Source of the DNA: Octopus vulgaris
Taxonomy: Eukaryota
NCBI GenBank assembly: GCA_951406725.2
Contig: OX597817.1
Span: forward strand, 23,064,001 to 23,128,000
DNA length: 64,000 nucleotides
Direction: 5' to 3'
Below are positions 5,192 through 43,549 of this stretch, in pieces. The notes beneath the pieces are model-generated. The model saw only the letters and a program-made list of their open reading frames with translations. It was not told where the DNA came from and ran no database searches. Within the stretch, counting starts at the first letter, position 1. Each line of letters begins with the position of its first letter. A program made the translations under genes and the position numbers.

Positions 5192-5556
5192 TAATGAAAT
5201 AGTAATGCAATACGAGAGTATTGCTTTCCAGTAAAGGATAGCCCGTGAGGGTAAAATTATACATATAAAAGTAAATAAAGGGCACAACAAAGTACCGATA
5301 TTTACTGGAAAATAGCGAACGTAATAAATACGACGCTAATGTATAGCTTCACTGCGTATGTACTAGTAAAGATGCGTGGGTGCAACAAACATGAAAAGAA
5401 TTGTCTTACCTCTGAAAAATGCAAAATCTAGAAACGGATAATGCAGTACCGGTTCCAGATTCTTCAAAATACGTTTGCCAACGTATATTTGATTTATCTT
5501 CATCAGCTGCATATACATCGGTACTTCGTTGTGCCATTTATTTACTTTTATATGTA
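5192..5556 (-). mobile_element. Small PLE-like element between (TA)n arrays, with a 40-bp inverted repeat and degenerate hammerhead
   Basis: 5260-5299 is the reverse complement of 5517-5556 with 2 mismatches. The minus strand reads gcagCTGATGAagataaatcaaatatacgtt at about 5510-5480. Confidence 0.5.
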
Positions 5557-7068
5557 CATGTATATATATATATGTGTGTGTGTGTGTGTGTGTGTGTGTG
5601 TGTGTGTATAGCCAACATAAACATTTACATTTGTGGTTTGTCAGGGTTATTTGTTACATAAGAAAAATTATGGATAGTTCAGTATTGCTCCAGTCATCCT
5701 GATGTTTCTCAAAACATTCACATTTAGAATATTTTGAACGTTTGTCAAATATGACACGCCCGGCAATATGTTACACACTTCTTGACGGTTTTTGAACGGT
5801 GTCACGTCAATGAATATATACATGAATTAATCAATATAATAAAATACAGTGGTTTTCCTAAACGCATTTATAGATGTCGCATGATATTTACGCTTTTATA
5901 GTTCTCTTACTTCAGTATGCGTAAGCGATATGACTGAAATATTACGGAGGTTGTGTAGAGATATTTCTTACATATAAAAACTGAGGGGTAATTATTCATG
6001 TCTTCACATTTACAGCAGAAGCAAAGTAAAGTATTTCCTGCTACAAAGTGAAACATTACCTGCTATAGAAGCGCATAATGCTACTTAGAATTAGATTTTG
6101 AGTCCAGGTGCTCAAAGTATCAGAGTAGACGTCGCAAACGATAATGGAGAAGTAACAGGAACTGTTAGAAGTTTAAAAGTGCAACTAATGGACAGTATAA
6201 CATGCAGTAACTAGTAATGTTGGATAAATAATTTCAAATATGAAATACAAGGAAATATTGCAATGTTGTCATGAAACCCGTTTTATTATCAGAGTTAACC
6301 GGAAACATTATATCGTAAATGTGTAAGCATTTATGTATAAATTTTCAAATAGTTTATTATAATGTAAAGCAGAGAAGATAGGAGAAGCGAAAATGGAGTA
6401 AAACAGAGAGAGAGAGAGAGAGAGAGAGAGAGAGAAATGCTGTGGTGAAAGTAATGTTGTTGTGTGATGAATTTTGTGCGTTTGAATATATTGAAATCGC
6501 AACCACTTATATAAATGTATGTATATATATATACAGATGTGTGTATGTATATATGTATATATATATATATATATATATATATATATATATATATATATAT
6601 ATATATATATATATATATATATATATATATGTAAGTATACATATGTATATATGTATGTATATATGGATATATATATATGCATATATATGTATGTATATAT
6701 ATATATATATATATATATATATATGTGTGTGTGTGTGTGTGTGGATATATCTGTATATATCTATGTATAAATTATCTATGTATAGAAGTATATGAGTATG
6801 CATCCTACTTTCGATATTAAGATATGAGAATGATTTCAAAAGGATCATTCAGAAAAAAACAGGAAACAATCGATTTTATAATTTCCTTTGCCTTACTTAT
6901 ATTTCAAAGCAAATGTAAATTTGAATGAAAACGAATGAATTTGATGTTAGGAAAAAGAAAAAAAAAACTTATGTCAGTATATAACGGAATCAGCTTAGAT
7001 TTGACAGCTGTTCAATTAGAATGCAATATGACAAGCTAGACAGTCTTCAACGTTTTCAGAGTTTGGTT

Positions 7069-7352
7069 AGATTATTATTATTATTATTATTATTATTATT
7101 ATTATTATTATTATTATTATTATTATTATTATTATTATTATTATTATTATTATTATTAATATTATTATTATCATTATTAATATTATTATTATCATTATTA
7201 TTTATTATTATTAATATTATTATTATTATTATCATTATTATTATTATTATAAATATTATTATTATTATTATTAATATTATTATTATTATTATTATTATTA
7301 TTTATTATTATTATTATTATTATTATTATCATTACTATTATCATTATTATTA
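7069..7352. repeat. (TTA)n microsatellite
   Basis: Directly visible. Confidence 0.98.
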
Positions 7353-7799
7353 GTTTTTCATATCATTTATATCATCATTATTCGTGCCTTTCAACGTTAA
7401 TGTTTAAATCTTTTTTATATGTAATTCTTTACTCTGACAAACGGAAGCTATCGTCATCATTTACGTATTTAAAAATCTTTTATACTTAGTTAAGTGAGAA
7501 GGAAGAAAAAGTTTGAAATTAAAATTAAAGAAAAAATGCATGGAATAAAGTATATCCTTTTTTTTATACAGGAGTAAACGTTTGTTTAAAAAAAGTAGTG
7601 GCTTGTACTAGAAGTAATACTCAAATTTATGAAGGCCCTCCTACGCAGTCACTTGACTTACTGGAAATAACAACCAAATCTCCTGCACACAAAAGCACGC
7701 GCCATCAGAAAATTAAAAGAAACAAAGGTTAATGCATTCTTAGTGGCATTCAGGGAAGTTGGGTTCGAATATCTCCAATCATACGCTATTGTGGTCAAG

Positions 7800-8055
7800 A
7801 AGAAGGAGAAGAAGAGCAAGAAGTAGTAGTAGTAGTAGTAGTAGTAGTAGTAGTAGTGGTGGTGGTGTTGGTGATGTTGGTGGTGATGGTGGTGTTGGTG
7901 GTGATGGTGGTGATGGTGGTAGTAGTAGTAGTGGTGGTGGTGGTGGTGACTGTGGGTGGTGGTGGTGGTAGTAGTAGTAGTAGTAGTAGTAGTAGTGGTA
8001 GTAGTAGTAGTAGTAGTAGTAGTAGTAGTAGTAGTAGTAGTAGTAGTAGTAGTAG
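7800..8055. repeat. (TAG)n/(TGG)n compound microsatellite
   Basis: Directly visible. Confidence 0.98.
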
Positions 8056-40970: not shown

Positions 40971-41059
40971 ATATATATATATATATATATATATATATAT
41001 ATATATATATATAGTAAAAGCGCATGGTTTAGCATAAGATCGTGAGTTCGATCCACGGT

Positions 41060-41900
41060 GATGTTGCAAGCCTACAACAGGAGTTGGATGCAATTTACAG
41101 AAGGGCTGAGGACAATATTATGCAGTTTAATGGTGGAAAATTACAACCCCTGCTCGTCCAAATCTGAAGGATTGTTTTACTGACTACACTGTAACATAAA
41201 TCAGTGCGGGACTTGGGTATCGACATGAGTCATGATATCTCATTCCAAGGGCACATTACCAAGAGGTTGAGAAAGTGCAGACGGCTAGCTTTGATGGGTC
41301 CTGAGAATTGATGGATCCTGAGAACCCACAGAACCAGAGAGAAGGAAACCATGATGGTCCTCTGGAAGATTCGTCCCAGCCACCTTGACTAGAGTTCCAA
41401 ACTATAGTCACCCCGCTGTGTAAAATTAAGAGCTGACCTTGAAGCAATCCAGTGACGCTTCACAAAGAACATCGTATCACTGCAACAACTCATCTGTTGC
41501 GAAAGATTGAAGCGGATAAGAATCTACTCAGTGGAGAGAAGTCGGGAGAGATATTCAGTAATATACATCTGGAAGATCCCGGGAGGAATTGTGCTAAAAT
41601 TTGGCTTTGAAAGCTACACAAAAAACCAGAAAGAGTCGTCACTGCACATTGCTAAAGATTTGAACAACCCCGTCGCGCTTCAGGACAGGTTACTGCAACA
41701 GCCAGGGTTTCAAGGTCCCACAGCTACATAAAGTGGATGTAGGTGCTTTCAAAGGGAAACTGGATCTCTTCCTGTCGAGAGTCCCAGATGAAACTAACTC
41801 GCGGCAGGTAGTGCGGATGAGGGCAGCAACACTAAAACATATCAGAGGAGGTTCTCAATTATAACAGTGCCCCAGCCTCGCCACAGCTGTGAACTGAAAA
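41060..41900 (+). mobile_element. CR1/L2-group LINE 3' remnant
   Basis: AEDNIMQFNGGK, VRDLGI, LEAIQ*RFTK, IYSVERSRERYSVIYIWKI, FKGKLDLFLSRVPDE; tail gtgccccagcctcgccacagc. Confidence 0.85.
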
Positions 41901-42802
41901 TTATATATATATATATATATATATATATATATATATATATATATATACATATATGAAATATACAGCATATATATCTGTGGGTATGTGTGTGAGCGTCGTG
42001 TATGTATTCATATATGTGAAAAAATATAATTATATGCATATCACTTCATACATAGAAATATGAATACACACACACTTATATATGTATGTATGTTAAATAC
42101 ATACACGCCCACGCGTATTTTGGTAATATATATATCAATATAAATCAATGTATATTTATATACCTAATACAAGTCAAAGTAGCGATAAAACTTTTGTATA
42201 CATATACCTGGGTATAACTTAATTTTCTCACCTGAACAATTTGAGTTCGATGGTTGGCAAACACAGCAATGCAGTATATTCTCGTTTACTACATATACTC
42301 AAAAGATGTTTTAAAACGTGTTTAACACAGATTGGAAATGAAACGGAATAATAGGATTGCGAAAGGCTGTATTTAGAATGACAGTATTATAATTCCTAAT
42401 CATTTTGTTTCGCTTCGTTTCCATTTTGTAAAATCTACAAAGCGTATGTAATAAAAGACAATTTTAAATGCCGCATTTTAAAGAATAAGATATTAAGCTT
42501 ACGTCCGAGTAAATATTCAATTTGTTCTTTAAAAATTTATATTTTGATTCGTTTTTTTTTCTGTAGCTGTCGTTTGCGTTATTGTAGTTAAATTTAAATT
42601 TTAATATCGTGTGTTCGAATTTACTGAATATTATAGGATATAATTGTGTGCTTGCGTTTTGTATGGGTGTTTGTACATAAGTATGTGCATACTTACGCAA
42701 ATAAATATGTGTATGTATGTGTACGTGCGTATGTATATATATATATATATATATATATATATATATATATATATATATATATATATGTATATATATATAT
42801 AT

Positions 42803-43025
42803 AAACAACTGCAGCGTGGAAGGTGTTTATAAGCCATTTAAGAAACACACAAAAGCCGTTCGATTCACTCCAACATTTAAGTTTAATTTGTCAAAATATT
42901 TTCGTCGCTAAAATCCGCGACCTGTTCACTGACAAAGTCCGTGCAGCACCTTCCACGCTGCAATTGTTTTCGTTTCAGCACACGATCTCAGATCAAATTA
43001 CTTGCTATGCGAGTACATCTCCGTA
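42803..43025 (-). mobile_element. About 220-bp PLE-type element between (TA)n arrays, with a 23-bp inverted repeat
   Basis: 42803-42825 is the reverse complement of 42947-42969 (22/23); encloses a hammerhead motif. Confidence 0.7.
42887..42936 (-). ncRNA. Minimal type I hammerhead ribozyme motif, G3-C8 core variant
   Basis: 5'-tttgtca GTGAACA g gtcgc ggatttta gcgac GAAA atatt t tgacaaa-3'. Perfect 7-bp stem I, 5-bp stem II, palindromic AATATT stem III. Confidence 0.7.
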
Positions 43026-43549
43026 ATATATATATATATATATATATATATATATATATATATATATATATATATATATATATATATATATATATATTCA
43101 TGTATATAAATATATGCATATGTAAATATATGTCTGTGTTTGTATTTTCGTTATTTATGTCGAACAAATGAGGAAAGTGTGCTCAATATAAATAGAACAT
43201 AAAGAACTTTTGAAAACTTCTTACTATTCGAGTTTCACGCCGAGACGATCATCAGGCGATAGTGACATGACTCAGTTTGTAATATATATATATATATATA
43301 TATATATATATATATATATATATATATATATATATACATATATTGTTTACCGTTGTCGATTTTTTTTCCTCTGTCTTACCTTCTCTGGATCTTTCCTTCT
43401 CCTATGTTTCCGACGAAACGTTAAACCCTCTTTCTTTCCTTCTCTCCTGAGCGTCCAATAATACTATACTTGTTCCACGTCCTCGCGTTGTTGTGTTTTT
43501 GTGCGTGTGTGTGTGGTTATTTGTCGTAAAATGTATGTACATTTTTGTA

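What the first reader, a model, noticed from the sequence alone, without database searches (positions are those of the whole stretch)
5192..43530. Recurrent micro-elements in (TA)n arrays combining an inverted end with a hammerhead-like motif
Seen: three sequence-unrelated 200-370 bp islands share one architecture, (TA)n - arm - body - inverted arm - (TA)n. They are 5192-5556 (40-bp IR), 34959-35239 (97-bp IR) and 42803-43025 (23-bp IR). Each holds a hammerhead-like motif, and in each one arm carries an extra tail while the other runs into (TA)n. Known: Penelope-like elements often insert with an inverted partial pseudo-LTR and carry hammerheads. Inference: a class of non-autonomous, ribozyme-bearing, TA-microsatellite-targeted retroelements (retrozyme-like, possibly with circular RNA intermediates) mobilised by PLE RT/GIY-YIG, for which several relics exist in this window.
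Basis: partly seen in the sequence, partly recalled or inferred. Interest (0 to 1): 0.7.

Follow-up and report, generated by a model that had tools for sequence, protein, structure and literature searches.

The report
Penelope stubs and one ribozyme repeat
The three mirror-image islands are short insertions from three abundant repeat families: two are end pieces of protein-coding Penelope-type jumping genes and one is a non-coding ribozyme repeat that likely borrows such an enzyme, and their ends likely record copying from two fixed start points at once, in one family running up to the RNA's capped front end.

Summary
The architecture is real: (TA)n, short arm, body, long arm with a 58-68-nt tail, (TA)n. 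Each island belongs to a family with over 1,000 candidate hits in G000. They are not one new class. I2 is the 3' end of a Hydra-type Penelope-like element (PLE). I3 is 98-100% identical to the pLTR of an ORF-bearing Neptune-type PLE. Only I1 is a non-coding 429-nt tandem hammerhead unit, a non-LTR retrozyme. A coding Hydra PLE here shows the same architecture, which is published for PLEs. All three families carry type I hammerheads, but only the I3 copy is complete (G3:C8 core); I1 has A13G and I2 lacks CUG. Two-armed copies pair one short end with one long end, as expected from priming on both strands. In the I3 family, 76 of 100 arms stop at one site about 55 nt upstream of the ribozyme cut, often with an extra G. 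This points to capped, uncut RNA, not a circle. The scan already noted the two-end rule in this genome and cap-G leader copies in other genomes. Mostly known biology with testable mechanistic detail.

The parts
5169..5193 (.). (TA)n array at the long (tailed) end of island I1
5197..5520 (-). I1 main arm: positions 89-425 of the 429-nt tandem unit of family F1 (92% to the L032 unit); includes the 65-nt tail at about 5194-5259
5441..5512 (-). F1 type I hammerhead (6-bp helix I, long helix II, palindromic helix III); this copy has A13G at 5455 and is predicted inactive
5517..5556 (+). I1 inverted short arm: unit positions 323-362, ending at the family's short end
34924..34959 (.). (TA)n array at the long end of island I2
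34959..35143 (-). I2 long arm: last 186 nt of the 3' UTR/pLTR of a Hydra-type PLE (family F2), 68-nt tail; starts inside the hammerhead CUGA box
   Evidence: 93% to the pLTRs in L257 and L258
35142..35239 (+). I2 short arm; holds only the 3' half of the hammerhead (35181-35200)
35235..35303 (.). (TA)n array at the short end of I2
42734..42803 (.). (TA)n array at the short end of island I3
42804..42944 (-). I3 short-end arm: about +7 to +149 of the leader/pLTR of a Neptune-type PLE (family F3), 98-99% to ORF-linked pLTRs
42887..42936 (-). Complete minimal type I hammerhead with a G3:C8 core pair, one extra base between positions 9 and 10.1, 5-bp helix II, palindromic helix III, 7-bp helix I; cleavage untested
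42947..43025 (+). I3 long-end arm: +127 to +207 of the leader; its 58-nt tail overlaps the first codons of the parent reading frame (ATG at 43007)
43026..43097 (.). (TA)n array at the long end of I3

Best explanation
The islands are short two-armed insertions from three unrelated repeat families, two of them ends of coding Penelope-like elements and one a non-coding tandem hammerhead unit, all likely pasted by Penelope RT/GIY-YIG proteins that prime copying from both nicked strands of a TA-rich target. Shown: each family has two fixed 3' ends 58-68 nt apart; two-armed copies pair one of each; the arms meet head to head at variable 5' positions. Inferred mechanism: the protein nicks both strands of (TA)n or other AT-rich DNA, starts reverse transcription at two internal RNA sites (one per strand), and the two cDNA 3' ends anneal by microhomology and are filled in. 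I2 is an ordinary 5'-truncated product of a Hydra-type element. I3 is likely a copy of the first 150-207 nt of the capped mRNA of a Neptune-type element, run out to the cap, with the ribozyme uncut. I1 comes from a non-autonomous 429-nt unit that is likely copied in trans from a tandem, or possibly circular, RNA; its helper is not identified.
For: Parents: pLTR-ORF-3'UTR-pLTR copies for F3 (L187, L190) and F2 (L257, L256). A young coding Hydra PLE shows the same two ends on (TA)n with an inverted copy (L151-153, L157). End rule in two-armed copies: F3 29 of 29 long+short; F1 15 long+short, 4 long+other, 0 same-same of 19; F2 19 long+short, 2 long+other, 1 counted twice over, of 22. These sets were ranked by likeness to the window copies. 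(TA)n beside 33 of 42 F1 3' ends against 5% background. Two F3 insertions outside microsatellites have 12-13-bp target duplications. F3 5' ends: of the first 100 of 896 arms reaching +7, 76 start at about +1 to +7 and 24 continue into the parent UTR (hand tally). Of 35 short arms that include the +1 A, 24 have G in front where the parent has T (hand tally of the first 100 of 635; P about 7e-10 at 20% background, and 18 of 28 after removing microhomology and double-seen junctions). At the commonest palindromic junction the central base is A in 8 and T in 5 of 13 orientable cases, as expected if two cDNA ends pair with one central mismatch. Literature: two internal RT start sites define the tail, both strands are nicked and extended, and uncut RNA is the main template in vitro (PMC11167929, parts 1-2 of 4 read). 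Untemplated G is taken to mark capped RNA in L1 and SVA (PMC4859970, passages).
Against: No RNA evidence for the start site or cap: the runs laid were contigs of guessed type. The F3 start site also looks like a splice acceptor. The junction-allele count is small and comes from similarity-ranked loci. No empty target sites were available, so insertion into pre-existing (TA)n is inferred. F1 shows a weak excess of 5' ends at the ribozyme cut site (3 exact and 7 within 6 nt of the first 100 of 129; Poisson P 0.014 and 0.03 at a rough background rate), so a minority of F1 templates may be cut. One F1 copy directly follows a Hydra GIY-YIG frame (L039 = L091).
Confidence: 0.8

Rival explanations
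1. All three islands are self-contained non-autonomous retrozymes that are cut by their hammerheads, circularised and reverse-transcribed in trans.
For: Fits F1: 37 of the first 100 of 187 tail ends run into the next unit, 63 into TA-rich microsatellite and none elsewhere (hand tally). 17 of 39 loci read across the unit junction and none joins a PLE ORF. Helix II covaries. Such repeats give circular RNA in coral, mussel and axolotl (PMC7229834, passages).
Against: F2 and F3 are ends of coding elements. F3 5' ends pile up upstream of the cut site with an extra G, which neither a circle nor a 5'-OH monomer would give. F1 arrays reach at most about 3 units in 30 loci, which a tandem precursor explains equally well.
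Confidence: 0.1
2. The fixed 5' end of the I3 family is a splice junction: the short copies come from spliced RNA whose first exon is only a few bases long or is usually not copied.
For: The site is preceded by a branch-point-like motif, a pyrimidine tract and AG. D. virilis Penelope has an intron ending at hammerhead helix I (PMC4209133, parts 1-2 of 4 read). An unchecked note on another family in this genome reports spliced leader copies (e1-10342667).
Against: Short copies share no upstream sequence beyond (T)G. The two AG-GT donors in the 1651-nt parent UTR of L187 do not match the bases seen, and no GAG-GT exists there. No splice joint appeared in four contig sets (weak).
Confidence: 0.12
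3. The inverted arm arises by self-priming (fold-back) of one nucleic acid strand, for example on an antisense template, not from two separately primed cDNAs.
For: Proposed for rotifer PLEs from palindromes at inverted junctions (PMC3846280, passages). F3 junctions are often near-perfect palindromes.
Against: Fold-back does not by itself explain why the second arm stops at the family's other fixed end in nearly every case. The hairpin at the common junction would have a 1-nt loop. Both central bases occur in tail-fixed orientation. Some junctions have two complete arms, each with its own extra G.
Confidence: 0.12
4. The islands are Tc1/mariner-type MITEs with fixed terminal inverted repeats and TA duplications.
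For: TA flanks and inverted ends.
Against: Arm overlap varies from 11 to 147 bp in F3; ends are asymmetric; target duplications are 12-13 bp where visible; two families are linked to RT/GIY-YIG ORFs.
Confidence: 0.01

Closest known systems
EN+ Penelope-like elements, Hydra and Neptune clades (Craig et al. 2021, PMC8557442; passages)
   Same: Partial tandems, inverted 5'-truncated copy, tail at one end only, hammerhead in the pLTR, (TA)n bias (almost all Hydra families). The F2 parent has RWA/DKT motifs and a CxC-type linker; the F3 parent has a CX3CxxC linker and a DKS(G) motif.
   Different: Tails here are 58-68 nt against 30-40 nt described. The paper's passages do not describe a near-strict short/long pairing or a fixed, G-marked 5' end.
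[quoted passage not shown]
   Same: Type I fold, palindromic helix III, extra base between 9 and 10.1, mostly dispersed single motifs from truncated PLEs, pairs 100-700 bp apart on opposite strands.
   Different: The F3 core pair is G3:C8; that paper and PMC3088659 (passages) report U3:A8 as the natural swap. F1 and F2 have a long extension of helix II.
Animal non-LTR retrozymes (PMC7229834, passages; bioRxiv 10.64898/2026.07.22.740005, parts 1-3 of 5 read)
   Same: F1 only: non-coding tandem unit of a few hundred bases with one type I hammerhead, dispersed as monomers and short arrays, proposed to be PLE-derived.
   Different: Circular RNA not tested here. F1 shows PLE-type two-end, inverted insertions. 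No parent pLTR found.
Poseidon PAc of Anolis (Frangieh et al. 2024, PMC11167929; parts 1-2 of 4 read)
   Same: Tail between two internal RT start sites near the ORF start, AT-rich target, both strands extended, ribozyme cleavage dispensable.
   Different: Different clade; that work did not address inverted junctions or cap-terminated short copies in the parts read.
L1 5' inversion by twin priming and cap-derived G (PMC4859970, passages)
   Same: Two priming events joined by microhomology; extra 5' G on full-length copies.
   Different: In L1 the two cDNAs cover different parts of one RNA; here both arms cover the same stretch, which needs two RNAs or one tandem RNA (inference).

Membership tests
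EN+ Penelope-like element (parents of I2 and I3) | Single ORF with RT and C-terminal GIY-YIG between pLTRs | tested here: met
   L187, L190 and L257, L256; catalytic YVDD/YRDD and GIY-YIG motifs read directly; these copies carry stops or frameshifts. Atlas look-alikes of the F3 parent carry RVT_1, GIY-YIG, HTH_animal. Pfam gave no significant match.
EN+ Penelope-like element (parents of I2 and I3) | Tail at one end, inverted 5'-truncated copy, partial tandems | tested here: met
EN+ Penelope-like element (parents of I2 and I3) | Placement in the PLE clade by RT phylogeny | not tested
   No reference set at hand; clade names rest on motifs from PMC8557442
Hydra clade (parent of I2) | RWK and DKT motifs, alternative linker | tested here: met
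   RWA and DKT in L256/L257, 31-35% identity to the RWK/DKT-bearing element in L153
Neptune clade (parent of I3) | CX2-5CxxC linker before GIY-YIG | tested here: met
   CX3CxxC in L187 and L190; Nematis shares this motif, so the clade is not fixed
Type I minimal hammerhead | Core boxes, 3:8 pair, helices I and II, palindromic helix III, UH site | tested here: met
   Families F1, F2, F3. Of the window copies only I3 is complete.
Type I minimal hammerhead | Covariation in helices | tested here: met
   F1 only: pair 18:55 CG 29 / UA 26, pair 15:58 AU 33 / GC 10 in 60 rows, 0 of 500 shuffles; these are a few subfamily-level changes, not independent events. Not counted for F2 or F3.
Type I minimal hammerhead | Self-cleavage | not testable with these tools
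   needs an in vitro assay
Non-LTR retrozyme (I1 family) | Non-coding tandem unit with a type I hammerhead in each unit | tested here: met
   two consecutive complete motifs in L040, L043, L044
Non-LTR retrozyme (I1 family) | Expressed as monomeric linear and circular RNA | not testable with these tools
   only contigs of guessed type were available
Non-LTR retrozyme (I2 and I3 families) | Non-coding tandem unit | tested here: not met
   repeat unit includes the ORF: 4261 bp between pLTRs in L190; about 5.4 kb in L257
Tc1/mariner MITE | Fixed TIRs and TA duplication | tested here: not met

The most novel reading that the evidence does not exclude
Many Penelope 'micro-elements' are integrated strong-stop-like cDNAs: the protein copies the 5' leader of its own capped mRNA from two internal sites to the cap, on two RNAs at once, one per target strand, possibly held together by the palindromic hammerhead dimer, and the two cDNA ends anneal directly. 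Such stubs would lack the sequence downstream of the start sites and be dead, whereas tandem units like F1 keep it and can be re-copied, which would explain why non-autonomous PLE derivatives are tandem. The I3 family would also carry a natural G3:C8 hammerhead.
Probability: 0.3. Interest if true: 0.6.

Novelty: new member of a known kind. Interest (0 to 1): 0.36.

Why it matters
How PLEs form their inverted, tailed insertions is described as open in PMC8557442 and PMC11167929. These young, very numerous copies give countable footprints: the short/long pairing, the two-allele junction, and a G-marked start that predicts a transcription start site to the base. They also show that look-alike hammerhead micro-elements in one genome have different origins, which matters for repeat annotation. 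The overall picture is known, and other notes of this scan already report the same footprints.

Tried and rejected
Rfam scan: only microsatellite-driven miRNA matches in the rows shown. The repeat finder was swamped by microsatellites. A loose hammerhead descriptor gave 10 hits against 1-10 in shuffles, so it was uninformative. I first took the GIY-YIG frame beside F1 in L039 as the F1 parent; only 1 of 30 related GIY-YIG loci had F1, and those elements have their own pLTR, so rejected. No F1 helper was found by similarity to three pLTRs. RNA: no RNA holder listed on record; contigs laid on an F3 parent stretch and an F1 dimer cannot show start, strand, level or circles. Pfam gave no match above cut-off for any parent protein. 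Literature searches: Penelope with 'twin priming' gave 3 papers, none on PLE mechanism by title or abstract start; 'untemplated G' with cap gave 9 listed, none on PLEs by title or abstract start. Lunse et al. on PLE hammerhead variants (PMC5785218) is not held, so whether G3:C8 is already reported in nature is open. No supplements were read; those of PMC8557442 and PMC4209133 may list related families or cores. Sequence look-ups in earlier findings for I1 and I3 returned nothing.
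Full report
Observation. The window is G000:C4:23064001-23128000 in a 2.8-Gb genome. The three islands, their inverted arms (40, about 98 and 23 bp) and their (TA)n flanks are as described. They are unrelated in sequence. Each belongs to a large family: 1775, 1979 and 1060 first-look candidates for I1, I2 and I3, and 3157 exact matches to one 21-base word of the I3 family. I call the families F1, F2 and F3.

Hammerheads. All three families carry a type I hammerhead with a palindromic helix III on the strand that ends in the tail. 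Of the window copies only I3 is complete. It is the single hit of a strict descriptor in the window, against 0.17 per shuffled window. Its core pair is G3:C8, present in 896 exact matches. An engineered C3G/G8C double change partly restores cleavage in the Anolis element (PMC11167929). I1 has A13G and I2 starts inside the CUGA box. In 60 F1 rows, two helix II pairs change on both sides between subfamilies, which suggests the fold was kept while F1 spread, though these are few events.

I3 is a piece of a coding element. A pattern search past the tail found 9 copies; 6 ran on into shared sequence. Larger stretches showed pLTR, a long RT plus GIY-YIG frame with a CX3CxxC linker, a 3' UTR and a second pLTR (L187, L190). 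The tail overlaps the first codons. The window arms are 98-100% identical to these pLTRs. Counting from the common start as +1, the predicted cut site is +59, and 3' ends cluster at +145-150 and +202-208.

I2 is also a piece of a coding element. Walking upstream in two steps led through a long non-coding UTR to a GIY-YIG frame and to a full pLTR-ORF-UTR-pLTR copy with an inverted pLTR in front (L257). RWA and DKT motifs and the linker match the Hydra clade as described in PMC8557442. F2 5' ends are scattered, as for ordinary truncation.

I1 is non-autonomous as far as tested. F1 is a 429-nt unit. Tail ends run into (TA)-rich microsatellite (63) or the next unit (37) in the first 100 of 187 matches. 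One copy follows a Hydra GIY-YIG frame, but 29 of 30 related loci lack F1. This fits the published non-LTR retrozymes. A circle is neither shown nor excluded. There is at most a weak excess of 5' ends at the cut site.

The architecture is the PLE insertion signature. A young coding Hydra element in this genome (717-aa frame, 2590-bp tandem unit) has the same two ends, 64-67 nt apart, on (TA)n, with an inverted truncated copy. Inverted copies, one-sided tails and (TA)n bias are published (PMC8557442; PMC3846280). Two-armed copies pair a long with a short end: 29 of 29 in F3, 15 of 19 in F1 with 4 long+other, 19 of 22 in F2. These sets were ranked by likeness to the window copies, so the rule needs an unbiased census. 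Arm overlap varies from 11 to 147 bp, and two insertions outside microsatellites show 12-13-bp target duplications, which rules out MITEs.

Mechanism (inferred). In vitro a PLE protein nicks and extends both strands of AT-rich DNA and starts at two internal RNA sites that delimit the tail, using uncut RNA (PMC11167929). Priming once on each strand, one from each site, gives exactly this layout. The commonest F3 junction has a central base that is A in 8 and T in 5 of 13 orientable cases; two cDNA ends pairing over 6 of 7 bases with a central mismatch would give both. For F3, 76 of the first 100 arms that reach +7 stop at about +1 to +7, 89 of 100 read through the cut site, and 24 of 35 arms with the +1 A have a G before it where the parent has T. 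In L1 and SVA such a G is read as the copied cap. The best reading is that I3-type stubs copy the leader of the capped mRNA. The site also resembles a splice acceptor, but no shared upstream exon is seen. RNA data could not decide this.

Prior work and verdict. My searches found no paper describing cap-terminated PLE leader copies or twin priming in PLEs, but one key paper was not held and no supplements were read. Unchecked notes of this scan report the two-end rule for other families in this genome and cap-G leader copies in other genomes. My notebook entries show these readings were reached before those look-ups; the notes are not independent support. The finding is real and the PLE link is right, but it is a mix of known things: two PLE stubs and one retrozyme. 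Interest 0.36.

Noticed in passing
window 43150-43285 (minus): Another hammerhead-like core (CUGAUGA ... GAAA) just left of the (TA)n array at 43282; probably a further PLE end.
   Followed up: no
window 43918-44175 (minus): Decayed coding relic, 35% identical over 88 aa to the Neptune-type parent of I3.
   Followed up: partly
window 24809-25222 (minus) and 55239-55577 (plus): Short frames that resemble PLE N-terminal and linker regions by recalled motifs; no Pfam match.
   Followed up: partly
window 56045-56971 (plus): 309-aa frame with a weak zf-RVT match (E 0.031), likely a LINE relic.
   Followed up: partly
window 14734-15650, 46335-47366, 51035-51282, 59189-60354: Larger inverted-repeat elements without (TA)n flanks; possibly DNA-transposon derivatives.
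   Followed up: no
window 40757-40970: 56-bp inverted repeat enclosing a (TA)n and (CT)n spacer, next to another (TA)n array.
   Followed up: no
L151-L158: Very young Hydra-type PLE with open 717-aa frames, near-identical copies on many chromosomes, and a hammerhead with C at core position 4; a candidate helper and in vitro substrate.
   Followed up: partly
L163:2145-4464: An F3 stub sits inside a TA tract within the 3' UTR of an F2 copy: nested PLE insertion.
   Followed up: no
L216:3200-6400: Three similar inverted F1 insertions within 3.2 kb, probably a local duplication.
   Followed up: no
alignment A1, position 17 of the hammerhead: F1 subfamilies alternate A and C at the cleavage position and rarely show G, in line with the UH rule.
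   Followed up: partly
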